Below are positions 2-29,364 of a DNA stretch of 32,947 bases, piece after piece; the stretch's first letter is position 1; the number at the start of each line of letters is the position of its first letter. Position numbers and translations under genes: made by a program. The DNA is from Selaginella moellendorffii (lineage: Eukaryota > Plantae > Lycopodiophyta), in contig NW_003314489.1 of NCBI RefSeq assembly GCF_000143415.4, forward strand, positions 1 through 32,947. Reading direction: 5' to 3'. The notes beneath the pieces were generated by a model, which saw only the letters and a program-made list of their open reading frames with translations, had not been told where the DNA came from and made no database searches.

Positions 2-2141
2 CATCTTCAGAGGTTTGTCGAGACATGTAGCGAGCAGCAACCACATAAAACCCGCCTCTTGGAAGATGGAACACGAGACACCCAACGAGTTCTCCCTTCC
101 ATGTATACCAAGGGGGCCATATTGGAAGATGTGAATCGGGAACTCCAGAGTAATGGCTACAGGAAGCTGAGCCAATCTAGATTTAGTAGATTGTGGAGCA
201 ACAGGTTCAGGGATGTGAGTATAGGAAAGTACTCCAGCTTTTCAAAGTGTGACGAGTGCACTGCTATCAAAATGGCTTTGTCGAAGAATTCTTGCAGCGC
301 TCAAGAGCGAGAGACGTTGGTTAGAAGGCGGCTCGACCACAACATCGAGCAGAGAAGCTGCAGGACTGCATATTATCATAACAGGATTCTCTCCATGGAG
401 AGACCTGACTCTTACCTCTGCATCATCCACGACAAAATGGACCAGAAAAAGACGTGCTTACCTCGACTCAATCCTGCCCCCAAGGCAATCTCTTCATCCA
501 TGCAGCTGCCTGTGTCTCTGTTTGGCATAATCGCTCATGGGCATGGTGCCCAGAACTATGGGAACTTCTTTGTACCTCTATGGGGTGGCGGGGGTGCAAA
601 CATGATGATTGCGTCCCTAGCAAAACACTTAAGGTCTCTGCAAAGTGCGCAGACTGAGCTGAACGGCCAACCCTTGCATAAGGCCCTTGTCGATCGAACC
701 CCATACAGGGTTCAGCTGGAGGAGGAGCAAAGGCTTGCAGTATCGCGTGGGGCCCCATGCCATCCCAGTGAATATGTTGGCCGTCAGATTGTAGGGTTAT
801 CACGTGAGGCCTCATGCCATTCCGACGAGGCTGGTCGCCCGGTGAATGCACAGCCTCATCCAAACGAAGCAGAATCTCAAGGAAGTTCTTGCGGCCGATG
901 TGGCCTTCCACCCCATCTTCTGCTCCAAACAGACAATGCTGGCAGTGAGAACAAAAACATGTACGTCTTCGCGTACTTGGCGATGCTTGTTGCCAAAGGC
1001 ATATTTGAAACGGTTACACTTGGCTTTCTCATGGTTGGGCACACTCATGAAGACGTCGATGCCATGTTCAGTCACCTGGCAGAGTCCCTCCGGCGATCCA
1101 ATGTCCTCACCCTCCCACAACTCTACGATGAATTCCAAAATTGCATCAAAGGCACTGTTGAAGCTGCACTTCTGACAGAGGTTCCAGACTTTAAGGGGTT
1201 TGTAAGAGGCTACATCAGGGATGGATCCGAAACGCTGATTGGCCACTACAAGCCTCTTCAGTTTCATTTCAGCATGTGTGACGGTGCTCCAGTGATGAGG
1301 TACAAGATGAGAGAATGGGACACAGTGTGGCTGCCAGTGGACGGCATTGAACTCTTCAAGAGAGATCCCATAACTGGGGAACCTATGATTCCTCAGGGTT
1401 CCCCACGGCCGATGCACCCGGATGGACTCAAAGACCAGGAAAGTATAGTGGCCGGGATTAGACAGCATATTGCCTTCTGGAAGAGGGGGTTGGTGTTTGG
1501 TGGAGAATCCTATTTTCAGAGGTGCAAGCCTTTGCTCGAATACTGGGAGAAGATTATATCTACTATCCAAAATGGGCCGGTTGTATATGAAGAATTGGAA
1601 GAGTCCTTTTGGCCAGAACCCAGAGCACCAGATAGTAGCGGAACAATGTCCTCTGGAAATGCAGTGACAGATAACGATGTTGAGGATCACTATTGTGGGC
1701 CGAGGAACAAGAAGCCGGATTCAGCATTCAATCCAGTACAGGTCTGCAAAGGAATGGTCGTGCTTGTCAGACCCAGTAATAAAAAACAAATGATATGGGT
1801 GGGGCGCTGCATCACTGATGCAGAGGAGGACGCGGAAACTAACTCCTTCAATGTAACTGTGGAGTGGTTCAAGCCAAGTTCCGGATATACGAAGGATTGC
1901 CTAGAAAAGAGATGGGTGCTGAATCCAAGGGATCCCAGCATGAGCATATCGGTGGATAATGTTGTGCATGGTTGGATGCGGAAGCAGAGTGCCACCATCA
2001 CCTTGCCAGACCATGCAAGAGATGCAGCAAGAGCATTCATAACTCGGGTTCAAGGTGAGATTCATTAATATTCCTTTACAAAGTTTCTAATGTATTTTAT
2101 TTCAAGGTGAACAATCCGAATCTGAATCAGAGGAGGCTTGA
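2..2141 (+). CDS. DDD-type transposase, Sola1/DUF7869-like (5' partial; probable short last exon 2107-2141)
   Basis: Frame is open from position 2 to the stop at 2068. Motifs: KCDEC, HDKMDQKK, QTDNAGSENKN, FLMVGHTHEDVDAMFS. A candidate intron 2055-2106 (GTGAGA...CTAAT...TTTTATTTCAAG) would add GEQSESESEEA*. Family assignment is from motif recall, not a search. Confidence 0.75.
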
Positions 2142-3521: not shown

Positions 3522-5444
3522 TGTAAGCGACTAAATTTTCCATTCTACTTTAGTCATTTAACCACACCTCCGACCACTTGGAGGAGTCTCAATCACAACC
3601 TCCGTAAGTCCAATTCCGGACTTGGGACTTGCTAGCCCTGAGAATGGCCTCCATGCCACTTAACATTTGCACTTGGTCCAAGTGCTCCACGTGTCCGATC
3701 ACACGACCGACACTCAAAGGTACCACCGACATAGCAGCCTGTTACGCTAAGGCCATGCCCAATCACCTTTGCCACACTGGTAGTCCAATACCACTTGCAT
3801 CACAGTCTTGGCTCTCAAAGACTAGGTAACCCATCCGTGAGTGGTCATCTCAGATCCACTCTTTAGCATCCTTAGGATGCCCACCGACAAGGGGAATAGC
3901 CTTCCCCAATATCCCTCTGTCAGTCCCCACTAAGTCCCTTTTTGCCCCTGGCCGTGTTTGCCGACACTGCCACTGGATTGAGGCCCACAGGCTCGACCAC
4001 TAAGTCCCACGGTCCTCTGGGACTTCCTCACCACACGATTGTGTCCTTGGTCACTACCCCAGAGGACTGCTCCTCTTCCTTTCCACAGTTTGGGCCTTTG
4101 GGACAACATTTCGAAACACCGTGGCCTTACGCGAGCCACCTGGGTACTCTCCCCGCCTTTCGCCTTTAGGTGCTCTAGCCATGGGCTTAGAGCGAGGTTC
4201 CGTTGAGCCACGACAGGTATCCAAGTAGGTAGTGCCACCCACACTTGGACTGGGAGCATCGGCCAGTCGATCTCCCGGGGGAACTAGAGCCGGCTCTTGA
4301 ACACTTCACCAAGCTACCCCGCTTGTCGGTCCGTGTTCACTCTAGTCTTGGACTTCCCAGTGGGCAGCTCATCACCCAACACTGGGTCCGGCCTTCCTGG
4401 GCCAAACTGGCCTTTCCTGGCCAAACTGGCTCCACTGCAGTCCTCCCCTTTACTATACTTTTGGAGCTCACCAAACCCCCCAGGGTCTGGGAGACGAACG
4501 CTTTGGGCTTTCACCTTCTCAGACTCGAACTCGGACTCGGACTCGGACTCGGACTCGGACTCGGACTCGGACTCGGACTCGGACTCGGACTCGGACTCGG
4601 ACTCGGGCTCGGGCTCGGTCTCGGTCTCGGTCTCGGTCCCGGTTCCATCTCGGACTCCATCTTGGACTCCATCTCGGGTCCATCTCGGACTCCATCTCGG
4701 GTCCATCTCGGGTCCATCTCGGACTCCATCTCGGACTCCATATCGGACTCCACTTCGGGTCTCGGTCTCGGTCTCGGTCTCGGTCCCGGTTCCATCTCGG
4801 ACTCCATCTTGGACTCCATCTCGGGTCCATCTCGGACTCCATCTCGGGTCCATCTCGGACTCCATCTCGGGTCCATCTCGGGTCCATCTCGGACTCCATC
4901 TCGGACTCCATATCGGACTCCACTTCGGGTCCATCTCGGACTCCATATCGGACTCCACTTTGGGTCCATCTCGGACTCCATATCGGACTCCATATCGGAC
5001 TCCACTTCGGGTCCATCTCGGACTCCATATCGGACTCCACTTCGGGTCCATCTCGGACTCCATATCGGACTCCATATCAGACTCCACTTCGGGTCCATCT
5101 CGGACTCCATATCGAACTCCATCTCGGACTCCACTTCGGACTCCATATCGGACTCCACTTCGGGTCCATCTCGGACTCCAACTCAGGTCCGCCTCGGACT
5201 CTATCTCAGACACTTCCACGTGTCATGTGTTGGTCCTTTTTGGGTCCCTTTTTGGAGCCTTGCTTATTGGTTGCCTTGTGCTTGCTCCTCGAGCTCTTTG
5301 TTGGGAGTTCCACTCCCGCTCTCGACCTTCCAAGTCGGAGCTTTTAGTCCAAACGTGTTATGCTCGTTTGGCTTTCGCTTCGGCCACTACCACGTGGCAC
5401 CCTTTCCGGCTCCACTTTGGGGCCTAGGGATTTTGTGTCTCACA
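3522..5444 (-). repeat. 3' LTR of outer element (1923 bp)
   Basis: TGTAAGCGAC...GTCTCACA; direct repeat of 17021-18863; abuts the PPT. Confidence 0.95.
4521..5180. repeat. (GGACTC)n microsatellite plus 12-bp-unit minisatellite in LTR
   Basis: 12 perfect GGACTC units at 4533-4604, then GGACTCCATCTC/GGGTCCATCTC/GGACTCCATATC/GGACTCCACTTC variants. Confidence 0.95.
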
Positions 5445-5460
5445 ACTCCACCACCCATAG
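5445..5460 (-). other. Polypurine tract of outer element
   Basis: Minus strand CTATGGGTGGTGGAGT directly before the 3' LTR; identical to the inner element's PPT. Confidence 0.9.
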
Positions 5461-5548
5461 ACGAAGTTCGATGTCCTCATCGAACGGTAAACCATCTTAT
5501 AAAGTAACACCCGCATGTGTTACCATTTCCATCCTTGGCACCTAGCCA

Positions 5549-5680
5549 ATATTTGTCAATGGTTTGACATTGAAGGCTCACCATGCCTTCTCCATATTCG
5601 TCAATGGTTTGACATTGAAAGCTCACCATGCCTTTTGCATATTCCTCAATGGTTTGACACCAAAGGCTCACCATGCCTTG
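5549..5680. repeat. Three tandem 45-bp repeats
   Basis: Unit ATATTYGTCAATGGTTTGACATTGAAGGCTCACCATGCCTT starting at 5549, 5594 and 5639. Confidence 0.9.
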
Positions 5681-6577
5681 CCTATCCTCCAAGGAGGGTA
5701 GTCTCTCCAACTTAGAGACTGATTGGACCACATGTAGTGGTTCTCTCCTTTTATTGGTTTAGTTCTCGCTAAACCCCTTAGAAACTCTTCTCTAAGTCAA
5801 TCCCACTACTCCTTCTCGAGTAGACTCAATTTCCATCTATTGAACGTTTGCACCTTGGAACTTTTACTCTTTTGACTTTTGGAAGTCAATTTCCTAGGTG
5901 TCTCTAACACCTTGCATTGCACAGATTGTGCAACTCCACTTCCCCATCCTAGGGAGTTCATTACTTGAGGGCACCATCATCCTCTCTTCTATTTTGTGCC
6001 ACCTTGGGCACTAAGTTCCATTTATCATACTTCGTGCTAGGGCTGTCCATGGCCCTATCGTTTGGCTACTTTACCGCTCCCTCCCTTGGAGCATCCACTT
6101 TCGCCAAATCGGAGCAATTCGGAATCCATCCTTGGAAACACACTTCCTTTCCCGCAATTTGTTAGCGTCCAACACATTAGTGTTCCTCGCCTAACTTTGT
6201 CACTTGGATTCCTTCCAAGGGATTCCACGGCCCTATCTTGGCCACTCATCTTTTGCTCCTATCCGTTGATTATTGCGCCAAGCAACATCGAATCTCTACC
6301 TCCCTCGTTGAGGTATTCTTTTGATTCCATAGCAAAGGTTCTGCTTTGCCAAGACTAGGGTGTTCACCCCTGGTAAGTCTCTTTAGCATCTTCTACTGTG
6401 GGCTCTATCCATGGCCCAACTTTGTGACCCTCCCATGGGTCTCTCCTAGAGACTACTTTGAACTCACAATACCATTGTATGGTCGTAGTTCATTTCCTTA
6501 GGTGTCCTTCCCACTTGGTCACCTTGACCAAGCCACACCATTATCAATAGGAACTAGGTCTTCCAGACCCTTCTAAG

Positions 6578-7021
6578 TTGTTGACTATGACCCCGGGGGC
6601 ATCCCCCACACTTGGCGGTGCGCCCAAGCCAGCCCTTCCGGCCAAGGATCCATAGCAACTGAGACTGGGTGTCCCCATCTCATTCACCACGTCCTTGGTG
6701 CCCTTTGCACCAAAGTGTTCAAGTTAGATATGCCGAGCTTTCACTCTAAGCAATCTAACCGTGCATCACGACTCCGGGGCATCCCCCGCTTGGCGGTGTG
6801 CCCAAGCCAATCTCCTCATTGAGAGTCCATGACCACCGAAATATGAGTGTCCTCATATTCCAAACCATCACCACGCCCTAGTGATTTGGGACTCGAACCC
6901 AAGCACTAGAGGGTCGGGACTCAAACCCAACCTCCGTATATGCATCTACGGACGGCATCACCCAGGATGCCTGGCGTGACTCTCCCCACGCCGGTGCACC
7001 AACTTATACTCAAAGCGCGCT
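6578..7021 (-). ncRNA. Putative cis-acting structured RNA module (partly duplicated) of outer element
   Basis: Reverse complement is collinear with 13133-13426 and shows compensatory stem changes. Confidence 0.6.
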
Positions 7022-7109
7022 AGAGATCACAGCTTAGGAACCTAGTTCCTCCCCACTGCCAAGTCCTCTCACTTGACAAGCCTGTGATCATGCATGGACT
7101 CCTCCATGC

Positions 7110-8257
7110 TGTAAGGAACCAACTCGCCGAGGTGTCGTAGGCTAAAGGAACCCCGAAAGCATGACCAAAATGACAAAGAGTTCATCGGATGGGACCAAGT
7201 CGAAGATCGAGTCCAAGACCGACTCTAGGACCGAGTTCGAGATCGAGTCCGGAATCGAGTCCGAGACCGACTCGGGGACCGAGTTCGAGTCTGAGTTCGA
7301 GACCGAGTTTGAGACGGAGTCCGAGATCCGAAATCGGGTCCGAGACCGAGTCCGAGGTCGAGTCCGAGGTCGGGTCCGAGATCGGGTCCGAGATCGAGTC
7401 CGAGATCGAGTCCGAACCCGAATCCGAAGTCGGATCCGAAATCGGGTCCGAGATCGAGCCAGAGACTAAGTCCAAATACTAATACGGGTCAAGGGGTGAA
7501 AGCCCAAAGCGTGCGTCTCCCAGGGGGGGGGGGGCTGCAGGGGGTTCCAAAAGTATAGTAGGGATAGTGAGGTCCAGGAACCAGTTTAGAAGGGACTCTC
7601 CAGTGGGGCTCCCAAACTGACTTGAGGTTGGGACTGGGACCGAGGGGCCTTGGGTGGGAGTGAGCATGGACTTGGTTGGTGCCGGAGGGGCCATCCAAGG
7701 AAGTGCTCAAGAGCAGCTCCCACTCCCGAAAGGGAAACCGATTGCGGTGCTTCCGGCTCAAGTGGAGTGGTGCCCCACTTGAGTACCATGCGGCTCATTG
7801 GTCCTCGCCCTTCCTAGGGGCTTGGGCCTTCCTTCGGGATGGAAGTGGGGGGCGAGAGGTACCCATACCGGGCCGCTAGGCCATGGTGTTTCGCCCCGGC
7901 GTCTCGAAGCAAGTGTTGCACTCAAGACTTGGGATTTAGAGGGTCCCATGATCAAGTCTTGTGGTACCAAAGGATGTTAGGAACCTGGAAGCTTGGTGTG
8001 CTTGGCTGCTTGTGCTTGCGGGGAGTGTAGCCGAACCTTAAGTCCAGTCCAACCCGGGGAGGGGGATTGGGAGTGATTTGGGAATCCGTGGATGGTGGCT
8101 AACACTCCGTTGCTCGTGCAGTGAGTAGCTGAGACCAAGTAGGAGCTGGTACCATAGGCGAGAACCTTGGCAAGGGAACTTAGCAAAAGCCAAGGCGGTG
8201 TTGGACGGATAGGCGAGGTAAGCTAGCAAATTGGAAAGGAAAAATTTGTGGCTTACA
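7110..8257 (+). repeat. 5' LTR of inner element (1148 bp)
   Basis: Direct repeat of 13488-14634 with about 9 substitutions and 1 indel; degenerate GAGTCC/GAGATC/GGGTCC hexamer array at ~7200-7470. Confidence 0.97.
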
Positions 8258-8260
8258 ATT

Positions 8261-8272
8261 TGGTATTGGAGC
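8261..8272 (+). other. Primer binding site (initiator tRNA-Met type)
   Basis: TGGTATTGGAGC, 3 nt after the LTR; canonical plant iMet PBS is TGGTATCAGAGC. Confidence 0.85.
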
Positions 8273-8316
8273 CTTTATCTCAGTTCTAGCGAAGGATAGA
8301 GGCGGATTGCTGGGAG

Positions 8317-11300
8317 ATGGCAAGGGCAGGGCGTAAGCGAACCCAGGCGGAGACGGAACCTCCGCCGGAGCTGGAGCCTCCGGTCGAACAAGAGGCTATG
8401 GATGAGGAATCCTTGCATGAGGAGAACTCTAGTGAGGAAACTTCCAAACAGGAGTCCGGTGGCGAGGTTCGGTCGTCCAAGGCTGGATTGGACGTGCTAG
8501 AAGGACAGTTGGCACAGACCAATGCCCTGCTGGAAACTCTCGTACGCAAGCTAAAGCGTGACGAGAGGCGGAAGAAAAAGAAAAAGACTGCGGATGCTGG
8601 CAGCGCAGAAGGTGCGGATCTTTCGGCCGGGACTGAGGCAAAACCAGACAAGGTCGAACAAACTGAAGTGGAATCAGTCCCTCAGGCAGTTCCCAAGTAC
8701 AAACCAAAGCCCCCACCGGTCTTCAAGGGAGTGAACAACTATAAGGTGGTGGAGGATTGGTTTTACGATATGGAGGACTACTTCCGAGCGTTGTGGTTAC
8801 CGAGCTCGGAGAAGGTCCCATGTGCAAAACCATACTTGGCAGATAATGCCAAGTCTTGGTGGAGAACGACGGAGGCCAACGAAGGACCAGTGGCCACTTG
8901 GGACATGATGAAGGCGAGGATCCGCGCAACATACGTTCCTCCGAATGCCACTCTGCATCTGAGAGATGAGCTGAGTAGGCTGAAGCAGACTGGAACCATC
9001 CAGGAATATATGAATGGGTTCATGGCAAAAAGGATACTTGTCACGGACATGGGGGATATGGATGCGTTCCATGCCTTCATATCAGGTTTGCAAACCTGGG
9101 CTCGCGGTGAGGTGATGCGGTGGAACCCGACCAACTACAAGGAAGCGTTGGATGCGGCCATCAAGGTGCATTTCAACGATAACCTGCGAAAGGGGAACAC
9201 GACGGGGTCGGGATCCACATTTAGCAAAGGGGCCAAACCAAGGGGAACGTATAGCAAGGGGAAATTCAAAAAGAGTTTCTCTAAGAATGAGTCCTCGGGG
9301 TTCCGGAAAGGCAAATCCGGTGGCCAGCGAGCGAGTACGTGGGGGAGTCAAGCGAAAAAAGACAAACCCACGGATAAGAAGGTCAAGTCGTATAGCAGCG
9401 TGGGAAACAACGTATGCTACAACTGCGGCGAAGCGGGACACTTCTCGAGGGAATGTCCCTACCCGAAGAAGGCCAGAGCCAATATGGCCATCAAGTCGGG
9501 TGAAGTCCAAACTGAGGTATGTGATCCAGTCCCTAACTCAAAGTTACTCATTACACGAGCAACTTTGGTAGAGAGTCGTTCGCGACATCTACTAGCCCTC
9601 CGAGGGAAGCTCGGAGGTAGCTTTGTTAAGATCCTTATTGACACGGGTGCTTCGGATAATTTTGTGGCTGCAGACATAGTTCGGCAAGCCGGACTAACGG
9701 TGCAGCGGCTAGGCGAACCAAGGACTATAGAGTTTGTTCAAGGTAGCCAAAGCACCGATGAGGTACTTCGACAAGCGAGAGTCGAAGTGGGGACATGGAA
9801 AGTGGACATGGATTTCACCATCTTGGACATGGCGGGATTTGACGTGATCTTCGGAATGGATTGGTTTAATCGGTTCGTGGTAGCCCTGCATGGACAAGGT
9901 AGGAACCTGGTGGTATTGGCGAATGCCCAAGGAAGAAGATCTAGGGTGGAGGCCCAGGATCTAAAGGTAGGGCAAAGCAAGGCCAAAGAGTCATGCTTAA
10001 ACCTGGTGTCCACGAGAGGACAACTCACTAAAGGAACTAAGGCAGCCTTTTTGTGCTTACTCTCGGTGAAGAGTGACAAAAAGACAAGAACGGAAGAAGT
10101 ACCTTTAGTGATCCAGCAGGTGCTGGACCAATTCCAGGATACGATGCCGAAGGAGCTACCGGCGGGGTTGCCCCCCGCACGACCGATAGAACATAAGATT
10201 GAGCTGGTCGAGGGTGCTGAGGCAGTGGTTCGTCCACCCTATCGATTGAATGAAAAAGAACTCAAGGAGCTCAAGAGCCAACTAGAGGAGTTGGTGGACA
10301 AAGGGTATGTTAGGTTGAGCAAGTCGCCGTATGGGGCGCCGGTGCTATTTGTGAAAAAGAAAGATGGATCTATGCGCATGTGCATAGACTACCGGTTGCT
10401 CAACAAGTATACCAAGAAGAACAAGTACCCTTTGCCAAGGATCGAGGACCTGTTCGATAGGTTGGGAAAGGCAAAATACTTCTCGAGGATTGACCTAAGG
10501 TCAGGATACTACCAGATCAGGGTAGCTGAGGAAGATGTTGAGAAGACAACCTGTCGAACGAGGTATGGGAGCTTTGAGTTTTTGGTGATGCCCTTTGGGC
10601 TGTGCAATGCACCGGCAACGTTTTCGGCGTTGATGAACCACATCTTTGTACCCTATTTGGATCGCTTCGTGGTCGTCTATATTGACGACATCCTGATCTA
10701 TAGCGAGACGCTAGAGGAGCATGCCAAACACTTGGCGAAGGTGTTTGAGAAACTAAAGGAACACAAACTGTATGCTAAAGAGAGCAAATGTGACTTTGCT
10801 CAACAAGAGGTAAAGTTTCTCGGGCATGTGGTGGGCCAGGACGGGCTCAAGGTGGACCCGGAGAAGGTCCAAGCGATCCAGGAATGGGAACGACCATCGA
10901 ATGTACATGAGTTGAGGGCGTTCCTGGGGCTATGCAACTACTATCGAAAGTTTATCAGACACTATTCGAGAGTAGCCCTGCCCTTAACGGACTAAACAGG
11001 AAAAGGGAAGATGGTATGGACAGCGGAATGCGAGGCGGCATTCGTCCACCTCAAAGGGAAGTTGAGGAAGGCTCCGGTGTTGGCATTACCAGACTTTGGT
11101 AAGGACTTTGAGGTAGACACGGATGCTTCGGACTTTGCGTTGGGCGCAGTTTTGAAGCAAGACAACCATCCAGTAGCGTTCTTCTCGAAGAAGCTGGACA
11201 AGGCTCAACGGAAGTGGCCTGCCCACGAGAAGGAATTGTTTGCGGTGGTCAAGGCGCTCAAGGAGTGGCGACACTACCTTGGGAGACACTTCAAGGTTTA

Positions 11301-13085
11301 CACGGACAATGTGGCAACGAAACACTTCTTGTCACAGCCTGACCTAAGGGGAAAACAAGGTCGGTGGGCCAATGCTTTGGCCGAGTTTGATTGCGAGATC
11401 CTGTACAAGCCTGGGAAGAGCAACATCGTGGCAGATGCGCTAAGTCGAAAAGCGAGCTTGAAGTTGGCGATATCTAGCGCGACAGCAACCTTTTGGGACG
11501 ATGTGCGGACCGCATACGAGAGTGATGGTCTAGCACAAGAAGTGTTGCTGAGGAATCTGGAGGCGCGGGAAGCTCACCAGAGAGGTGAGCTGCCAACGGA
11601 AGAGAAAACGGGCTATGCGGAACGCAACGGACTCATATATTACAAGCAAACGAGGGTGTATGTTCCAGAAGGGGAACTAAGGAAGGTAGCCTTGGAAGAG
11701 TGTCATGACGGACCTCTCGCGGGACACGGCGGAGTGCCCAAGACGATGGGCTTACTCAAAAGGAAGTATCACTGGCCAGATATGGCTAAGGACGTCCAAG
11801 ACTATGTAAAGACATGTCCAACATGTCAGCAGGTCAAAACCGTGACGAAGGCTAGTGGGGGCTTGTTGCAAAGCATCCCCATTCCAGATCGTCCATGGAA
11901 ATGTCTCACGATGGACTTCATCACGGGACTACCCCCAAGCGAGGGGTTCGATGCGATATTCGTGGTGGTGGACCGATTTTCAAAGATGGCACATTTCATA
12001 CCCACCACAACGGATGTGGATGCGGAAAGTGTGGCAAAGCTGTTCTTCGAACAAGTGGTTCGAGTGCGGGGAAGGCCGGAAGAGATTATCTCAGATCGAG
12101 ATAAGATCTTCACCAGTAGGTTCTGGAGGACACTCCTAGAACAGTATCGCACCAAGTTGAAATTCAGCACGGCCTATCACCCACAGGTAATGGGTATTGA
12201 GTCAAGATTGATGGCACTAACACTTCTTGACAGACGGACAAACGGAAAGGGTGAATAGGCAGCTGGAGGATTATTTGCGATGCTATGTCTCGGGAGACCA
12301 GACCGACTGGGTAAGTCATTTGGGACTTGCGGAAATGTGTTATAACAACTCACCACATTCGAGCATCGGGGTGAGTCCATGGGAAGTCATCAATGGGCGA
12401 GCTATTGAAGGTCCTGTGGAACTCGGCGTGGCCGAGTATCATGGAGAGTTACCCGCAGTGGAGGCATTCACGGCGGAAAGACTCAACATTTGGAATCTAG
12501 TGAGGGATTCCTTGGAACGGGCTCAACAAAGGCAAACTAAGTACGCGAACCAAAAGCGTCGAGATGTGGAGTTCCAAGCTGGGGAGAAGGTGTGGCTGAA
12601 CACCAAGAACCTCAGGCTACCAAGTGGGATCAGCCGGAAGTTGACCCAAAGGTAAGAATGCATGTGTTCCTGTAAATGAATTGATCTTGAGTTCCTTAAG
12701 CAGGTTCGCGGGGCCTTACGAGATTGAGGCTCGAATCGGTAAAGTGGCTTACTGTCTCCGACTTCCTCGAGAGATGGGGAAGATGCATCCCGTGTTCCAC
12801 GTGAACTTACTCAAGCCGTATTTTGAGGATCCGCTTCGCAAGGACCAAGTAAGACCTTTACCTGAGGTTATCCAAGGGGAGGAGGAATACGAAGTCGAGG
12901 CCATCCTCAATGCGCGCAAGAGCAAGCGACATGGACGCGAGGTGAGAGAGTTCCATGTGAAGTGGAAAGGATTTCCACACTGCGAAGCAACATGGGAACC
13001 GGAGGAGAACCTAGCGAACGCACGAGATCTAGTGGAGGAATTTCTGCATGGCAGAACTCTATGTACTTATGCAAAGTTCAATTAA
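8317..13085 (+). CDS. gag-pol: Gag-Pol polyprotein (capsid, zinc knuckle, protease, RT, RNase H, integrase, chromodomain); one in-frame stop and two intron-like inserts
   Basis: [14 protein letters not shown]; LIDTGAS; YIDDIL; DTDASD; H..GH..CPTC; MDF/SDRD/QTER; FAGPY; YEVEAIL...VKWKGF...TWEPEENL. ORFs 8317-10995 and 11011-12258 share a frame and are separated by TAA at 10993-10995. Confidence 0.95.
12187..12229 (+). other. Intron-like insertion in the integrase catalytic core
   Basis: CAG|GTAATG...CACTAAC...TTCTTG|ACAG. Removing 43 nt restores YHPQTDGQTER and D-X35-E spacing. The nearest AG (12233) is 4 nt off-frame. Confidence 0.7.
12652..12703 (+). other. GT-AG intron (52 nt) in integrase C-terminal region
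   Basis: AG|GTAAGA...TTCCTTAAGCAG|G. Removal restores KLTQR-FAGPY in frame; the unspliced reading stops at 12653-12655. Confidence 0.85.
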
Positions 13086-13132
13086 AAGTATCAATTTGAG
13101 AAGTTGAGCAATGGCATATGTTGGGACCCGAA

Positions 13133-13426
13133 GGCGCGCCGAAGGTAAGCTAATTAGCATGGGTTAGCTAGGTCGACCAGGCGTAGGGAGCTACGCCCGA
13201 CTCCCTGCAGGGATGTCGAATCCGTAGACGTATTCTACGGAGGTTGGGTTCGAGTCCCAACCCCCTAGTAAAGCAAGGCTGGGTTCAAGTCCCGACCCTA
13301 TACTAGGGCGTGGTGAGGTGAGGAGTATAGGGACACCTATATTCCGTTGTCAAGGGCTCTTGGCCGGGGAGGCTAACTTAGGCACACCGCTAAGTGGGGG
13401 GATGCCCCCGGAGACATGGTCAACAA
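13133..13426 (+). ncRNA. Putative cis-acting structured RNA module in 3' UTR of inner element
   Basis: Consecutive hairpins at 13180-13197, 13198-13218, 13221-13241, 13242-13262, 13281-13293, 13322-13345 and 13377-13394; conserved in the outer element. Confidence 0.6.
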
Positions 13427-13471
13427 GTCGTAGGATAAAACGAGACGTTCGATGTGGGCATTGAACTTCTT

Positions 13472-13487
13472 CTATGGGTGGTGGAGT
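13472..13487 (+). other. Polypurine tract of inner element
   Basis: CTATGGGTGGTGGAGT immediately 5' of the 3' LTR. Confidence 0.9.
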
Positions 13488-14634
13488 TGTAAGGAACCAA
13501 CTCGCCGAGGTGTCGTAGGCTAAAGGAACCCCGAAAGCATGACCAAAATGACAAAGAGTTCATCGGATGGGACCAAGTCGAAGATCGAGTCCAAGACCGA
13601 CTCTAGGACCGAGTTCGAGATCGAGTCCGGAATCGAGTCCGAGACCGACTCGGGGACCGAGTTCGAGTCCGAGTTCGAGACCGAGTTTGAGACGGAGTCC
13701 GAGATCCGAAATCGGGTCCGAGACCGAGTCCGAGGTCGAGTCCGAGGTCGGGTCCGAGATCGGGTCCGAGATCGAGTCCGAGATCAAGTCCGAACCCGAA
13801 TCCGAAGTCGGATCCGAAATCGGGTCCGAGATCGAGCCAGAGACTAAGTCCAAATACTAATACGGGTCAAGGGGTGAAAGCCCAAAGCGTGCGTCTCCCA
13901 AGGGGGGGGGGCTGCAGGGGGTTCCAAAAGTATAGTAGGGATAGTGAGGTCCAGGAACCAGTTTAGAAGGGACTCTCCAGTGGGGCTCCCAAACTGACTT
14001 GAGGTTGGGACTGGGACCGAGGGGCCTTGGGTGGGAGTGAGCATGGACTTGGTTGGTGCCGGAGGGGCCATCCAAGGAAGTGCTCAAGAGCAGCTCCCAC
14101 TCCCGAAAGGGAAACCGATTGCGGTGCTCCCGGCTCAAGTGGAGTGGTGCCCCACTTGAGTACCATGCGGCTCATTGGTCCTCGCCCTTCTTAGGGGCTT
14201 GGGCCTTCCTTCGGGATGGAAGTGGGGGGCGAGAGGTACCCATACCGGGCCGCTAGGCCACGGTGTTTTGCCCCGGCGTCTCGAAGCAAGTGTTGCACTC
14301 AAGACTTGGGATTTAGAGGGTCCCATGACCAAGTCTTGTGGTACCAAAGGATGTTAGGAACCTGGAAGCTTGGTGTGCTTGGCTGCTTGTGCTTGCGGGG
14401 AGTGTAGCCGAACCTTAAGTCCAGTCCAACCCGGGGAGGGGGATTGGGAGTGATTTGGGAATCCGTGGATGGTGGCTAACACTCCGTTGCTCGTGCAGTG
14501 AGTAGCTGAGACCAAGTAGGAGCTGGTACCATAGGCGAGAACCTTGGCAAGGGAACTTAGCAAAAGCCAAGGCGGTGTTGGACGGATAGGCGAGGTAAGT
14601 TAGCAAATTGGAAAGGAAAAATTTGTGGCTTACA
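13488..14634 (+). repeat. 3' LTR of inner element (1147 bp)
   Basis: Direct repeat of 7110-8257, followed by TSD CATGC. Confidence 0.97.
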
Positions 14635-17005
14635 CATGCTTGGCCCCATGGCCCACCCTTTTTGAAGTTATCACCTTCAACTAGGGTATTTGTTCCCCTG
14701 ACTTGCCAATCTCACTTTGGCAAGTCCTCCGACCACTGTAACATGGTTTCTGCACAAGCGTGAAAGCCCTTGATCATCGACTTTCGTTCAAAGCCCTCTC
14801 TTTGAACACTCGGGAACTACTTCCCTAACCTTGATAGCCTTGTCTCATGGAAAGCTTCAAGACCACATTTCTGCTGCGCCACTCTGATTTCGCGCGTTCC
14901 TTGAACCATTTACGCTTGGCCTTTCTAGGTACTAAGCTACCTAGAATCCTCTTTGGGAACCTTGAAGGAACTCTGTTCCTTAGCTTGCTAAAGCCTCCCT
15001 TTTTGCAAGCTTTCCAATTACCATATAGTCTAACATGGACAATTCCATATTTTAGACTCTCCATGGCATCACGATTGCTAACGGCAACACCCTCAAGCCC
15101 CCACTTGATTCTCCACTCCCAGCTGGCATAACCAACCTTGGTTATGCCCTTCGATTCCTATGGTTCGGTTCTATCCCCTTACTTCTTGCTTTTGGCTTCA
15201 CACATTTTCTTCGGTCATTCTCCTCCAGACCAGGAGGATAGCTTTGCACTTTCTATCATGCCTTAGCAAGTATTCTTAGGGATGAACCTACCCGATAGCC
15301 TAGGGAGTGTTTCCTCAATCCAGGTATGCTCACCCTATAATCCCACACACCGGGATTACGTTGTTGCTTACGGGCCTTTGCATGCCCATCGCTAGCCTTG
15401 CCAAAATACCATTTTTGGCTTTGTCCAATTCGAGTAGACAGTCTTCTCCTGTCTCTGCCACCTTGGACATTTGGATAGCACCTTCTATCCATCATTCGCT
15501 AGGGACTTAGTCCCTTGGGCTTTATCCATTGCCCTCGCGACATCAAACACCACCTTCTGGTGTTCTAGAGTGTTCGGGTGTCCCAATGATGGCTTTCTTG
15601 ACAATGAGTATTTCCTTTTATGACATTGACTTACTATATCGCAACACAAGCAACTTATCCCCCGTAAGGGTGTATCCGACTTCCCTATGCTATTAAGAAG
15701 TCTTGGGTAGCTACCTTTTACCCGTTCAACCAGTTATTTTGCACCTCTTGCTTAGTTGCTTCATAGTTGTCAAGTCTTACAACTCATTGTTTGGTGCTTT
15801 CACACCTCCATAATTATCTGGGTCACCACACTCCAACTGCATGCTCTGCAGCTTAGGCTATGCCATTCCCATTTCCATTGGGATTCCTTTGGCAAGGGGT
15901 TCTCATGAACCCACCAACATAGCCTCAAGGTATCACACCTTGACACATTTGGTGTCTCCACATCATCAGCTCCACGAGCCTACCTCTATGACACTTCCCC
16001 TTCGTGTTTATGTCTTTGCCAAGACCAACACCGCTCTTTCTCATGCCAACCATCCGTTAGCACTGCACCATAGAGGTCACACACAACTTTGTGTCAAAGT
16101 TGTTTTCTTTTTTTTTTTTTTTTTTTGGGAACACCTTTCCCACGACTTTAGCATGGCACATTTTGCCATCGATGAGATACCCTCTGTTCTCATCCTTGGA
16201 TCCTATGATCCCCCCCCATCCTTCGTGGGGTACGACACACCTCAGTCCAAATGCTTCCATCAGTCCTTTTAGGACCATCCCTTGACTCTACTTGAGTCAT
16301 CCAGCAGTTTTGGATTTGGTTAATCCACAGACCCGTAAGGTCCCACTTGTGAGGCACTAGCTCATTGGAATACACTTCCTGCATTCCTGTTCTACTCAGA
16401 AGGACTATTTTCACAAGTGTTACTCTGACACTTGTTTTTGTTATCTAAGGCAACCTCTGCCCCTTAGGACTACTTGTCCATGTGATGAGAATACCAACTC
16501 ATCTCTAAGTACACCCCCCAACTCCTTGGGTTGTTCTAGCATTTATTAAAAGTAGCCCCGGCTACCATTTCAAGGACTTGAGTCCTCTTCCGTATTTGAC
16601 CTCCCACAGTCATTACCTCTGGTCTCACATTCATGAGCACCAACCTCAACTATATGAGGATAATCTTGTGACTCCTTTATTGTTTTGGAGTCTACATCTT
16701 TCCCGTGATCCCAACTATAGTTGTTTATCACAATTACGTTAGCCCGTTTGCTGCGTCAAACGCTCATTTGGATCACATCCTCAGCTCTCTGAGGAGACCT
16801 TATACTGTTCCCAAGATCCCAAAGTCGTTCCATTATTGGCCCTTTTCTATCCACCACATTGTGCCCAAGTCACGCATGAACTTGAGTGGAGAGCCATGTC
16901 CCCTCGGCATGCTACTCCTTAAGGATAAGCCCACTCCTAGGACCTTCCGAAGCCAATATCAATGGTGATATACTTGAGCACCAATAAAAGTCGGACTAAG
17001 GAACA

Positions 17006-17017
17006 GCTCCGATACCA
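17006..17017 (-). other. Primer binding site (tRNA-iMet type) of outer element
   Basis: Minus strand TGGTATCGGAGC, 3 nt (ATT) after the LTR; same spacer as the inner element. Confidence 0.9.
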
Positions 17018-17020
17018 AAT

Positions 17021-18863
17021 TGTAGGCGACTAATTTTTCCATTCTACTTTAGTCATTTAACCACACCTCCGACCACTTAGAGGAGTCTCAATCACAACCT
17101 CCATAAGTCCAATTCCGGACTTGGGACTTGCTAGCCCTGAGAATGGCCTCCATGCCACTCAACATTTGCACTTGGTCCAAGTGCTCCACATGTCCGACCA
17201 CACGACCGACACTCAAAGGTACCACCGACATAGCAGCCTGTTACACTAAGGCCATGCCCAATCACCTTTGCCACACTGGTAGTCCAATACCACTTGCATC
17301 ACAGTCTTGGCTCTCCAAGACTAGGTAACCCATCCGTGAGTGGTCATCTCAGATCCACTCTTTAGCATCCTTAGGATGCCCACCGACAAGGGGAATAGCC
17401 TTCCCCAATATCCCTCTGTCAGTCCCCACTAAGTCCCTTTTTGCCCCTGGCCGTGTTTGCCGACACTGCCACTGGATTGAGGCCCACAGGCTCGACCACT
17501 AAGTCCCACGGTCCTCTAGGACTTCCTCACCACACGACTGTGTCCTTGGTCACTACCCCAGAGGACTGCTCCTCTTCCTTTCCACAGTCTGGGCCTTTGG
17601 GACAACATTTCGAAACACCGTGGCCTTACGCGAGCCACTTGGGTACTCTCCCCGCCTTTCGCCTTTAGGTGCTCTAGCCATGGGCTTAGAGCGAGGTTCC
17701 GTTGAGCCACAACAGGTATCCAAGTAGGTAGTGCCACCCACACTTGGACTGGGAGCATCGGCCAGTCGATCTCCCGGGGGAACTAGAGCCGGCTCTTGAA
17801 CACTTCACCAAGCTACCCCGCTTGTCGGTCCGTGTTCACTCTAGTCTTGGACTTCCCAGTGGGCAGCTCATCACCCAACACTGGGTCCGGCCTTCCTGGG
17901 CCAAACTGGCCTTTCCTGGCCAAACTGGCTCCACTGCAGTCCTCCCCCTTACTATACTTTTGGAGCTCACCAAACCCCCCAGGGTCTGGGAGACGAACGC
18001 TTTGGGCTTTCACCCTCTCAAACTCGGACTCGGACTCGGACTCGGACTCGGACTCGGACTCGGACTCGGACTCGGACTCGGACTCGGACTCGGACTCGGA
18101 CTCGGACTCGGACTCGGACTCGGACTCGGACTCGGACTCGGACTCGGACTCGGACTCGGACTCGGACTCGGACTCGGACTCGGGCTTGGGCTCGGACTCG
18201 GACTCGGGCTCGGGCTCGGGCTCGGTCTCGGTCTCGGTCCCGGTTCCATCTCGGACTCCATCTTGGACTCCATCTCGGGTCCATCTCGGACTCCATCTCG
18301 GGTCCATCTCGGGTCCATCTCGGACTCCATCTCGGACTCCATATCTGACTCCACTTCGGGTCCATCTCGGACTCCATATCGGACTCCACTTCGGGTCCAT
18401 CTCGGACTCCATATCGGACTCCACTTCGGGTCCATCTCGGACTCCATATCGGACTCCACTTCGGGTCCATCTCGGACTCCATATCGGACTCCATATCAGA
18501 CTCCACTTCGGGTCCATCTCGGACTCCATATCGAACTCCATCTCGGACTCCACTTCGGACTCCATATCGGACTCCACTTTGGGTCCATCTCGGACTCCAA
18601 CTCAGGTCCGCCTCGGACTCTATCTCAGACACTTCCACGTGTCATGTGTTGGTCCTTTTTGGGTCCCTTTTTGGAGCCTTGCTTATTGGTTGCCTTGTGC
18701 TTGCTCCTCGAGCTCTTTGTTGGGAGTTCCACTCCCGCTCTCAACCTTCCAAGTCGGAGCTTTTAGTCCAAACGTGTTATGCTCGTTTGGCTTTCGCTTC
18801 GGCCACTACCACGTGGCACCCTTTCCGGCTCCACTTTGGGGCCTAGGGATTTTGTGTTTCACA
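17021..18863 (-). repeat. 5' LTR of outer element (1843 bp)
   Basis: TGTAGGCGAC...GTTTCACA followed by TSD ATTGC. Confidence 0.95.
18020..18598. repeat. (GGACTC)n microsatellite plus 12-bp-unit minisatellite in LTR
   Basis: 26 perfect GGACTC units at 18026-18181, then 12-bp variants. Confidence 0.95.
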
Positions 18864-23382: not shown

Positions 23383-24330
23383 CTATGTGGTCCGCAACAC
23401 AAGCAGGGAAATCCCCACAGAACTCCCTTCCAGTCCCTGCCGGAGAATCTGTGCGTGGAAGAGCTTCCCGAGCTTCAAATCTCCCAGGTTCCTGCAAACT
23501 GGCAACAACGCAAGAAAGGTTTGAGAGTTTAGAGCAACTTCCAGGGCTGCATAGCATTCCAACGCAAGCTCGTCCTCGCCAATGTAAACACATCCAAACA
23601 GGAAAGAGTTCCACAAAACTATGTCGCGATCTAAGATTTTATCAAATACCCTGCGAGCGTCCATGATCAAGCTTCCACACTTGGCATACATATCAACCAG
23701 ACTGCCGGATCTCTCTCCAGGCCAAGCTGCGAGATCCACGAGTGGATTTTCATTGCTTTCTCGAGAGATTCTACGTCTAAATCCCATTTTCTTCTCTGTG
23801 ATTACGCTACAAGCCTTGATAGCGGCGAGACAAGCTAAACGATCGGGTTTAAATCGTTGTTCTTGCATGGAAGAGAAGAGAAGGAAAGCTTCGTCTCCAT
23901 CTCGGCTCTCGTGAGCATAGCCTGTGATGATCGATGTCCAGGAAACGATGTCGTGCTGCTCCATCGAATCAAACACCCTGCGAGCATCTTCTAGACTTTC
24001 ACAGTTGCCATACAAGTCCACCATCGCGTTTGCCAAGTGTATGTCTCCTCGCCTCCAACTTGAAGCCGCGAGAGCTTGATGCGTGAGAGTGAATCGCCAA
24101 AGCTCGTTCCAAGCTCTTAATCTTCACAGCCAACGACGCATCAATCTCCTCTCGCGCAGCCAGACTAGAGCAAGTTTTGATAGCTGCGAGAAAACTCGAG
24201 CAATCTGGATTGATCATAGCAGCTTCCATCTGGGAGAAGAGCTCGAGAGCCAAATCTTCCTGCCGGTTTTGAGCGTATCCCAGAACCAATACCGTCCAGG
24301 AGACAACGTCGTGGTTCTCAATCCCATCGC
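23383..24330 (-). pseudogene. PLS-class pentatricopeptide repeat pseudogene
   Basis: DVVSW..LGYAQN, VDLYGNCESLEDARRVFDSM..DIVSWTSIITGY, SLVDMYAKCGS. Frameshift near 24040; lacks a start and the C-terminus. Confidence 0.85.
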
Positions 24331-24456
24331 CGAGAGTTTCTCATGCTTCCACACTTGGCATTCCAGGAAATGTTCACTTAAACATGATACCTTTAAAATA
24401 AAAGATGCTTAAACTAAGATTCTGCCTTTACAAACAAGCCCTAGTGCTCATTCGAG

Positions 24457-25407
24457 ATGGTTAAGCGCGAGCGCGAGCGCGAGCATAGTTTAGACAATTA
24501 TATGCACAAAAAACTTAGGCAAGGGATGGATTACCACACGGTCCTGGATGAGAAACTCTGTGAGGAACACCCAGCGCTGGTAGAGAAATATAAACTAGAG
24601 AAATCGATTGGGGGTGGAGGGCAATCGACGGTGTACAAGGCATTCCGAAGGAGTGATGGGAAGGTTTTTGCGATCAAGACGGTCCATGGGCCCGATGGGC
24701 TGTTTGAAGCTCGGCTGATGGCTATGCTAGAGGTGTCACTCAAGGGTCTCGATGAGCAGGGGCTCGTCCACTTCGAGCAGCTCATACGAGAAGAGCCCAA
24801 TCAGTACGGGGAGGTGTACCACCTTGTTCTTGAGCTGTGCAATTGCAGCCTTCACGACCGGATCAAGTACAAGGGGCAGCTTGATGAGGAAGAATCTGCA
24901 AAGATCGTCATAGCTCTCGCCAAGACGCTAAAGAGGGTTCATGACAATGAGATCATCCACTGCGACCTGAAGCCCGCGAATGTTTTGCTGAAGTACCCGC
25001 GGCCTGGGATGTTCTATGTCCCAAAGGTGTCCGACTTTGGGATGGCTTGCTGGATGGAGGATCCGTGGAACGAGTGTGGGGCTGGGACGTGGGATTATAT
25101 GTCCCCCGAAGCGATGCTCGATGGGTGCTATATCACCGCCAGCGATGTGTGGGGCTTAGGGATGCTGCTTTACACTTGTCTCACGGCAATTTGTCCGTTC
25201 CCAAATATGGATGTGGAGGTGGTATTTAAGAATGCACGCAAGCGAGATCGAAGTTTAAGGAACCTCCATCACAATTCTATGGATTGGGATAGCATTCCAT
25301 CCCTTTCTGCAAGGCAGCTTATCCAAGGCATGACGGAATTGGATCCCGGAAGGAGGTTTACTTTGGAAAAGGTCCTCGAACATGAGTGGATAAAGAAATA
25401 TTTATAA
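24457..25407 (+). CDS. Ser/Thr protein kinase, CAMK/CDPK-like catalytic domain only, intronless
   Basis: GGGGQSTV, AIK, HCDLKPAN, DFG, GTWDYMSPE, DVWGLG, conserved subdomain XI Arg; 316 aa from ATG to stop. Confidence 0.9.
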   Translation: MVKREREREHSLDNYMHKKLRQGMDYHTVLDEKLCEEHPALVEKYKLEKSIGGGGQSTVYKAFRRSDGKVFAIKTVHGPDGLFEARLMAMLEVSLKGLDEQGLVHFEQLIREEPNQYGEVYHLVLELCNCSLHDRIKYKGQLDEEESAKIVIALAKTLKRVHDNEIIHCDLKPANVLLKYPRPGMFYVPKVSDFGMACWMEDPWNECGAGTWDYMSPEAMLDGCYITASDVWGLGMLLYTCLTAICPFPNMDVEVVFKNARKRDRSLRNLHHNSMDWDSIPSLSARQLIQGMTELDPGRRFTLEKVLEHEWIKKYL

Positions 25408-29360: not shown

Positions 29361-29364
29361 GCTC

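What the first reader, a model, noticed from the sequence alone, without database searches (positions are those of the whole stretch)
8218..8283. Candidate leader intron that removes the U5 end and the PBS: a possible mRNA/genomic-RNA switch
Seen: donor GAG|GTAAGC at 8218 in U5 (a perfect AG|GTAAGT in the 3' LTR copy, ~14595). An acceptor CTTTATCTCAG| lies at 8283 (alternative TTCTAG at 8289), just after the PBS (8261-8272) and 33 nt before the gag ATG. The 66-nt size resembles other introns in the window. Inference: spliced mRNA would lack the primer site and att end, so it could not be reverse transcribed. That would explain how the integrase introns survive retrotransposition.
Basis: partly seen in the sequence, partly recalled or inferred. 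Interest (0 to 1): 0.88.

Follow-up and report, generated by a model that had tools for sequence, protein, structure and literature searches.

The report
Intron-bearing plant chromovirus retrotransposon
A plant jumping gene carries two short, likely spliced inserts in its integrase and, in one contig from a likely RNA run, skips its protease site in a way that would give a capsid-only message, while the proposed leader intron over its primer site is present as a motif but was seen only unspliced and likely serves mainly as a priming hairpin.

Summary
The motifs are there: donor GAG|GTAAGC at 8218, PBS 8261-8272, acceptor CTTTATCTCAG at 8283, in a young chromovirus-type LTR element (7110-14634). 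The splice is not shown. The only contig that spans the leader (run X1, likely RNA, another copy) is unspliced, and no raw read covers it. The donor letters are also the 5' arm of a predicted 14-bp U5 hairpin that pairs with the LTR end, which explains them without splicing. The same run holds a different GT..AG joint, 9517-9673, that drops the protease active site and would end the protein right after Gag: the EVD/BARE1 strategy, here in a Gypsy element. Two frame-breaking GT..AG inserts split the integrase (47 and 52 nt); relatives lack them and a second copy keeps the first. So the element likely keeps introns by packaging unspliced RNA. Whether a rare leader splice is what bars the spliced Pol message stays open (about 1 in 4). 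RNA evidence rests on one run. The scan noted intron-like segments at LTR ends before in other genomes, none checked with RNA.

The parts
7110..8257 (+). 5' LTR (TGTAA...TTACA), 1148 bp; target-site duplication CATGC at 7105-7109 and 14635-14639
   Evidence: 10 differences from the 3' LTR
7554..7560 (+). TATA-like word TATAGTA, shared with the host element's LTR; likely promoter
   Evidence: both LTR families; the X1 contig begins at 7584, 30 nt downstream, with no family coverage at 7527-7583; contigs cannot prove a start
8218..8256 (+). Predicted 14-bp U5 hairpin; its 5' arm is the donor motif, its 3' arm the LTR end
   Evidence: z -3.78, 0 of 200 shuffles fold as well
8218..8283 (+). Candidate leader intron of the finding (66 nt, GT..AG); not seen spliced
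   Evidence: unspliced in the one spanning contig
8261..8272 (+). Primer-binding site, initiator-Met type (label recalled)
8271..8303 (+). Predicted 10-bp hairpin that covers the acceptor's pyrimidine tract
   Evidence: pairing 0.84-0.99; not better than shuffles alone (z -1.01)
8317..13085 (+). gag-pol: Gag, zinc knuckle, protease, RT, RNase H, integrase, SH3, chromodomain; this copy is broken by a stop at 10993-10995 and at the first integrase break
9517..9673 (+). Alternative gag-protease intron, 157 nt, GAG|GTATGT..GCTGCAG; removes the DTG active site; a stop follows one codon after the acceptor
   Evidence: GT..AG joint in one X1 contig, depth 4.67, 28 letters on the short side
12187..12233 (+). 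Integrase intron 1 candidate, 47 nt, CAG|GTAATG..CTAAC..TTGACAG; lies before the catalytic E of D,D(35)E
   Evidence: kept in a second copy
12652..12703 (+). Integrase intron 2 candidate, 52 nt, AAG|GTAAGA..TAAGCAG; splits the SH3-like region
13040..13099 (+). U-rich patch with the element's only ATTAAA (13081), over the pol stop; possible internal poly(A) signal
   Evidence: inference
13145..13210 (+). Second strong donor AAG|GTAAGC with a possible acceptor CCCTGCAG 66 nt on, in the 3' untranslated region
   Evidence: no joint seen
13120..13300 (+). Multi-hairpin RNA element in the 3' untranslated region, shared with the non-coding host element; candidate packaging signal
   Evidence: (z -4.68)
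13476..13487 (+). Polypurine tract GGGTGGTGGAGT
   Evidence: same tract in the host element
13488..14634 (+). 3' LTR

Best explanation
This is a chromovirus-type LTR retrotransposon that likely uses the host spliceosome to make its messages and likely copies only unspliced RNA; the 8218-8283 stretch is predicted to be mainly the U5 hairpin plus primer site needed to start reverse transcription, with a donor motif buried in the hairpin and spliced rarely if at all. Shown: the element's anatomy; two frame-breaking GT..AG inserts in the integrase that relatives lack; retention of the first insert in a second, about 2% divergent copy; a precise GT..AG joint at 9517-9673 in one contig; an unspliced leader in the one spanning contig. 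Inferred: that the joint makes a Gag-only mRNA that sets the Gag:Pol ratio in a single-ORF element; that the integrase inserts are spliced from a rarer Pol mRNA; that spliced RNAs are kept out of particles by pool separation (translation versus packaging, as in BARE1) rather than by loss of the primer site.
For:: contig 7584-8388 (depth 13.5) is the only X1 record in bins 7690-7889 and 8090-8289 and has no joint, while the same run shows the 9514->9672 GT..AG joint, so the leader splice is rarer there than the Gag splice; donor bases pair with the LTR end at 0.97-1.0; the host element has a hairpin in the same place with different letters and only a weak donor; the leader donor costs 6.7 kcal/mol to open, against 0.9-3.7 for the other three intron donors (background median 5.8); the splice would remove none of the 7 upstream ATGs, all of whose frames close by 8124; 69 of 81 relatives are contiguous at integrase break 1 and 20 of the 38 measurable ones at break 2, none with a 40-60 nt insert. 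BARE1 keeps its intron through separate RNA pools (PMC3735527, abstract and Discussion part 1 read); EVD couples its protease-removing splice to early termination (PMC5580714, passages read).
Against: All RNA evidence is from contigs of one run whose RNA nature is the tool's guess; contigs drop rare forms; the joint has 28 letters on its short side and stands in one contig. No integrase splice was seen, so the Pol mRNA itself was not observed. The base before the donor is G, which fits a donor, where T would extend the hairpin (the host element has T). Both elements in the window have a pyrimidine tract plus YAG 10-11 nt after the PBS, against 0 of 14 intronless relatives. How spliced RNA is excluded from particles was not tested at all.
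Confidence: 0.45

Rival explanations
1. One reading: 8218-8283 is a real alternative intron, spliced on the Pol mRNA together with the integrase introns, so that this mRNA lacks the primer site and LTR end and cannot be copied; the U5 hairpin that hides the donor would be the on/off device that protects genomic RNA.
For: Strong donor and acceptor around the PBS (0.16-1.4% in shuffles); intron-like size and U-richness; 5 AG|GTA[AT]G sites on the sense strand against a shuffle mean of 1.08 (1 of 500 shuffles reached it) and none antisense, two of the five being the RNA-supported donor 9517 and the integrase donor 12652; 0 of 14 intronless relatives have the pair; the second copy's listed changes at 8276-8278 leave the tract all-pyrimidine and no change is listed at the GT or AG (22 of that contig's 26 differences are listed); RNA likely starts upstream. 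Foamy viruses have their major donor in the LTR, upstream of the PBS (PMC5035957, passages read).
Against: Unspliced in the only spanning contig, in a run where the Gag splice is visible. Hairpin pairing explains the donor letters; hairpins reaching the LTR end are common in relatives (7 of 14 with mean pairing 0.6 or more). No branch-like word. The element's Gag splice would need its own exclusion route unless it is co-spliced.
Confidence: 0.27
2. The spliced Pol mRNA is made uncopyable at its 3' end: it ends at an internal poly(A) signal over the pol stop, before the polypurine tract and 3' LTR, or loses part of the 3' hairpin cluster through the donor at 13145; U1 binding at 13145 would let genomic RNA read through.
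For: Only ATTAAA of the element at 13081 in a U-rich patch; a top-scoring donor at 13145 just behind it; strongly folded 3' element shared with the non-coding host element; EVD uses U1 to hold back early termination (PMC5580714, passages read). X1 depth falls from about 5 to under 2.5 after 12890.
Against: No read ends or joints were seen there; an X1 contig runs across 13092-13109; contig depth is a poor measure; the 13210 acceptor is the costliest to open (14.0 kcal/mol).
Confidence: 0.14
3. The integrase inserts are not spliced in practice; the family is defective for integrase and is moved by an intronless helper, so no exclusion device is needed and the leader motifs are hairpin by-products.
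For: Insert 1 is unspliced in the one X1 contig over it; the window copy is broken at 10993 and at break 1; non-coding relatives are evidently mobilised in this genome (host element).
Against: Both inserts have canonical ends, U-rich bodies and branch-like words; the 138- and 125-codon stretches behind them are open and as alike to relatives (about 30-50%) as the part before; no intronless close relative turned up (best 50-59% identity), though these libraries do not seem to hold this genome's elements.
Confidence: 0.12

Closest known systems
EVD and other Arabidopsis Ty1/Copia elements (Oberlin et al. 2017, PMC5580714; passages read)
   Same: Single gag-pol ORF; an alternative intron removes the protease sequence and creates a stop shortly after the junction, giving a Gag-only mRNA.
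   Different: This element is Ty3/Gypsy; that paper says Gypsy elements showed no such conserved splicing in Arabidopsis. EVD's full-length Pol RNA needs no splicing, whereas here two inserts break the integrase frame.
BARE1 of barley (Chang et al. 2013, PMC3735527; abstract and first part of Discussion read)
   Same: Short alternative intron gives Gag-only RNA; intron survives because translated and packaged RNAs are separate pools; a parasitic relative shares the cis signals.
   Different: Copia; separation comes from two TATA boxes and the R region, not from removing the PBS; no introns in integrase.
Ogre (Tat lineage, Ty3/Gypsy) intron, as described in PMC6317226 (passages and Ty3/gypsy section read); the primary paper PMC2596294 was not held
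   Same: A Gypsy element whose Pol can be translated in full only after splicing, yet genomic copies keep the intron.
   Different: [quoted passage not shown]
Foamy-virus major splice donor (PMC5035957, PMC7828637; passages read)
   Same: A donor inside the LTR, upstream of the PBS and present in both LTRs, whose folding matters; pol comes from a spliced mRNA. That such splices drop the PBS follows from the map and is my inference.
   Different: Retrovirus; donor in R with far acceptors; here a 66-nt candidate near the LTR end that is not shown to be used.
Penelope-like elements (PMC8557442; passages read)
   Same: Retroelements that keep introns after retrotransposition; 5' UTR introns across the terminal-repeat boundary in Penelope and Chlamys-3_cRei.
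   Different: Not LTR elements; no PBS or integrase; the paper calls intron retention highly unusual among retroelements.

Membership tests
Ty3/Gypsy chromovirus | LTRs, PBS, PPT, domain order Gag-PR-RT-RH-IN | tested here: met
Ty3/Gypsy chromovirus | C-terminal chromodomain | tested here: met
   PF00385, E 5e-16
Galadriel clade | tRNA-complementary PBS (Tcn1 mostly lacks one, PMC6317226) | tested here: met
   PBS at 8261-8272; initiator-Met label recalled
Galadriel clade | RT groups with labelled Galadriel references | tested here: inconclusive
   RT sits in a 28-row clade (98/93) with single-ORF angiosperm chromoviruses and metagenome loci, nearest 69% (61 of 123 RT rows used); no labelled reference was in the tree, the clade name is recalled
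Spliceosomal intron (leader 8218-8283) | GT..AG ends, pyrimidine tract, U-rich body | tested here: met
Spliceosomal intron (leader 8218-8283) | Junction present in RNA | tested here: inconclusive
   Absent from the one spanning contig; 0 raw reads at 8090-8689 in 3 of 3 raw runs; contigs drop rare forms
Spliceosomal intron (leader 8218-8283) | Sites conserved across copies | tested here: inconclusive
   GT kept in both LTRs, no change listed at GT or AG in a second copy (table incomplete); donor weak in the non-coding host element
Spliceosomal intron (integrase 1 and 2) | Canonical ends, frame-breaking insert absent from relatives | tested here: met
Spliceosomal intron (integrase 1 and 2) | Junction present in RNA | tested here: inconclusive
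   Intron 1 retained in the one contig; intron 2 mostly uncovered (12656-12689), contig end unexplained
EVD/BARE1-type Gag-only subgenomic RNA | Splice removes protease site and creates a stop right after Gag | tested here: met
   joint in one contig; stop one codon after the acceptor, 400-codon Gag with zinc knuckle intact
EVD/BARE1-type Gag-only subgenomic RNA | Element belongs to Ty1/Copia | tested here: not met
   Gypsy domain order and chromodomain; so it works like, but is not a member
EVD/BARE1-type Gag-only subgenomic RNA | Spliced RNA excluded from particles (early poly(A) or separate pool) | not testable with these tools
   needs 3' RACE and particle RNA
Ogre-type intron | [quoted passage not shown] | tested here: not met
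   protease and RT are in one frame here; element is a chromovirus
Foamy-type LTR donor | Used donor upstream of the PBS feeding a spliced pol mRNA | not testable with these tools
   motif position fits; use not shown

The most novel reading that the evidence does not exclude
A chromovirus that has gained obligatory host-type introns inside its integrase and protects them with a hairpin-gated leader intron that cuts the primer site and LTR end out of every Pol mRNA, while a third splice makes the Gag-only message: an LTR retrotransposon that sorts genome from message by splicing alone.
Probability: 0.22. Interest if true: 0.9.

Novelty: new variant of a known kind. Interest (0 to 1): 0.6.

Why it matters
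Introns in an LTR element are normally lost in one round of copying, and plant LTR elements are said to generally lack them apart from Ogre and EVD (PMC12786077, passages read). An element that needs splicing inside its integrase yet keeps the introns must sort spliced from unspliced RNA, which makes the old question of how retrotransposons choose the RNA they package testable with four exact junctions. The protease-skipping splice, if confirmed, extends the Copia way of making extra Gag to a Gypsy element. I found no report of introns inside a chromovirus integrase or of a PBS-removing leader intron in an LTR retrotransposon in 10 full-text searches; these cover open-licence papers only, not repeat databases, and the element tables of PMC6317226 were not among the supplement text searched, so a database note on this family may exist.

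Tried and rejected
No whole genome is held, so copy-wide conservation could not be counted. No RNA holder was listed on record for the stretch. Three raw RNA runs of one study (about 12 in 100 of each read; 287, 137, 137 reads laid, mostly under 90% alike) cover only LTR parts and scraps and nothing at 8090-8689: no evidence either way. Only 4 of 23 listed runs were laid; there is no DNA control and no second RNA-type run. Searches for close relatives failed: best identities 50%, none, 56%, 59%; 116 of 150 hits read straight through break 1, the other 34 are truncated or deviant, none clearly with this intron; PBS-junction pattern absent from viral and genome contigs; no Gag relatives in viral contigs. 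A gag-protease donor in relatives: 3 of 10 have a score-7 donor within 250 nt, about the chance rate, so no conservation signal. Rfam: 0 matches in 5400-17200. Rejected: that the leader splice creates a start codon or removes upstream ATGs (neither junction spells ATG); that donor 10563 is an intron (it lies in RT codons RYG). Reading the uncovered stretch 12656-12689 in X1 as a sign of intron-2 splicing: gaps are frequent in that run and the contig runs 4 aligned letters into the insert, so not counted. PMC13148404, PMC7175516 and PMC2864245 (passages read) say nothing on introns inside LTR elements. The host lineage was not determined; PPR arrays show a land plant, and a spikemoss is only a recalled guess that steered two paper searches.

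Full report
Setting. The finding lies in a young LTR retrotransposon: 5' LTR 7110-8257, 3' LTR 13488-14634, 10 differences in 1148 columns, target duplication CATGC. One reading frame from ATG 8317 carries Gag, zinc knuckle, protease and RT, then RNase H, integrase, an SH3-like region and a chromodomain. This copy is broken by a stop at 10993-10995 and at the first integrase break. Its RT falls in a well-supported 28-row clade with single-ORF plant chromoviruses, nearest identity 69% (61 of 123 RT-bearing rows were used: the closest by identity, a set of named ones and all loci; Galadriel-like is a recalled label). It is inserted in a non-coding LTR element on the minus strand (3522-18863) that shares its cis signals. 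PPR arrays mark the host as a land plant; no genome is held.

The observation. The donor-acceptor pair around the PBS is unusual against shuffles (0.16% strict, 1.4% relaxed), the interval is U-rich like the element's other intron candidates, and 0 of 14 distinct PBS sites in fetched relatives have such a pair (2 have a donor, none an acceptor; 2 near-duplicates were dropped). Both window elements have a pyrimidine tract plus YAG just after the PBS, but they are related and so not independent.

A second reading of the same letters. Folding shows that the donor GTAAGC is the 5' arm of a 14-bp hairpin whose 3' arm is the LTR end GCTTAC (pairing 0.97-1.0 in three contexts; z -3.78). An LTR that ends in CTTACA gets GTAAG for free from such a hairpin. 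The C/T difference between the two LTRs keeps the pair as G-U; of the second copy's two changes in the stem one keeps a pair and one breaks a pair beside the loop. The host element has a hairpin in the same place with other letters and only a weak donor, though alone it folds no better than shuffles (z -0.49), and a non-coding element would not need the donor anyway. Hairpins reaching the LTR end are common in relatives (7 of 14). The acceptor's tract is likewise paired, downstream here and upstream in the host element. The leader donor is the hardest of the four intron donors to open (6.7 against 0.9-3.7 kcal/mol), but near the background median of 5.8. One detail favours a donor: the base before GT is G, where T would lengthen the stem.

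RNA. Four of 23 listed runs were laid. Three raw RNA runs of one study had no read at 8090-8689. Run X1 (contigs; RNA is the tool's guess) covers 29 of 30 bins. Its longest piece, from another copy (26 differences in 806 letters), runs from 7584 to 8388 with no joint, and bin depths show it is the only record over the leader. It begins 30 nt after a TATA-like word shared by both LTR families, with no family coverage at 7527-7583, which fits a start upstream of the donor but cannot prove it. The same run holds one joint: 9514 to 9672, skipping 157 letters with GT..AG ends, that is intron 9517-9673. It removes the protease DTG site, and a stop follows one codon after the acceptor, leaving a 400-codon Gag with its zinc knuckle. 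The precise ends, the strong donor and the stop make a chance deletion unlikely, and they are also the best sign that X1 is RNA; but it is one contig, depth 4.67, with 28 letters on the short side, and a spliced-and-reinserted DNA copy is not excluded. From recalled assembler behaviour an unbroken contig means the spliced leader is a minority form in that run; it does not mean absence.

Integrase introns. Inserts at 12187-12233 (47 nt) and 12652-12703 (52 nt) have canonical ends, 37-40% GC and branch-like words. Relatives are contiguous at these places: 69 of 81 loci at break 1 (3 not measurable, 9 with other small or large offsets) and 20 of 38 measurable at break 2, none with a 40-60 nt insert; 187 of 240 proteins carry the unbroken motif at break 1. 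Break 1 lies before the catalytic E, so unspliced RNA cannot give a working integrase. In the window copy removal of the 47 letters alone leaves the frame off; the X1 copy differs by a short indel beside the donor and its spacing fits a 47-nt intron. That contig (14 other letters in 608) keeps the insert, so two diverged copies carry it, which implies survival through copying unless they arose by DNA duplication. No integrase junction was seen; intron 2 is largely uncovered in X1.

Mechanism. Shown: anatomy, inserts, one GT..AG joint, unspliced leader. Inferred: the element makes a Gag-only mRNA by the protease-skipping splice, a rarer Pol mRNA by splicing the integrase introns, and packages unspliced RNA. 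I judge it most likely (0.45) that spliced RNAs are excluded by pool separation, with 8218-8283 serving mainly as the priming platform. A 3' route (0.14) has its own anatomy: the only ATTAAA over the pol stop, a top-scoring donor at 13145 and a strongly folded 3' element shared with the parasitic partner. Dead integrase with a helper (0.12) cannot be excluded.

Comparison. The Gag splice works like that of EVD (PMC5580714, passages) and BARE1 (PMC3735527, abstract and Discussion part 1) but in a Gypsy element. The need to splice for Pol recalls Ogre (PMC6317226, passages and section 9; the primary paper was not held), but the position and lineage differ. A donor in the LTR ahead of the PBS is known from foamy viruses (PMC5035957, passages), and intron retention with a leader intron across the terminal repeat from Penelope-like elements (PMC8557442, passages). 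Ten searches showed no report of introns within a chromovirus integrase or of a PBS-removing leader intron in an LTR retrotransposon; for most hits I saw only the listing. Earlier notes of this scan describe intron-like segments at LTR ends in a chromovirus and in fungal copia families of other genomes; they are unchecked, lack RNA data, and did not change my odds. No look-alike of this element was on file.

Verdict. Observation confirmed; leader splice unproven and, in the one informative run, not the main form; the element's intron architecture is real enough to merit follow-up. New variant of a known kind; interest 0.6.

Noticed in passing
window 3522-18863, minus strand: The element sits inside a non-coding LTR element (LTRs 18863-17021 and 5444-3522, target duplication GCAAT, about 97% alike LTRs) that shares its PBS, polypurine tract, TATA-like word, U5 end and 3' hairpin cluster but shows no match to its gag-pol: a likely parasitic partner.
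   Followed up: partly
window 13120-13300 (+) and 6872-6996 (-): Five-hairpin RNA element, z -4.68, 72% alike between the two families, 32 of 33 predicted pairs kept with 2 changed on both sides (two sequences only); no Rfam match; candidate packaging signal.
   Followed up: partly
window 13143-13152 and 8216-8225: The 3' UTR donor and the leader donor share ten identical letters, and each has a possible acceptor exactly 66 nt on. Unexplained.
   Followed up: no
window 7188-7498, 13566-13876, 4488-5276, 17987-18695: Both LTR families carry arrays of 6/12-nt tandem units in U3.
   Followed up: no
window 7584-8316: If RNA starts near 7584 the leader is 733 nt with 7 upstream ATGs (frames of 9-63 codons), so Gag translation would need shunting, re-initiation or a second, nearer start.
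   Followed up: partly
window 2-2106: Open frame of 684 codons running off the left end with DUF7869 (PF25273, E 9e-42), followed by a 52-nt U-rich GT..AG intron candidate at 2055-2106.
   Followed up: partly
window 6590-6700 and 6770-6880: Part of the shared 3' region is present twice in the host element (two hits to 13305-13426).
   Followed up: no
window 23386-24123 (-), 27980-29362 (-), 24445-25407 (+): PPR-repeat frames and a single-exon protein kinase; a further retroelement remnant with integrase-like codons appears on the minus strand near 29700-31900 (read by eye).
   Followed up: no
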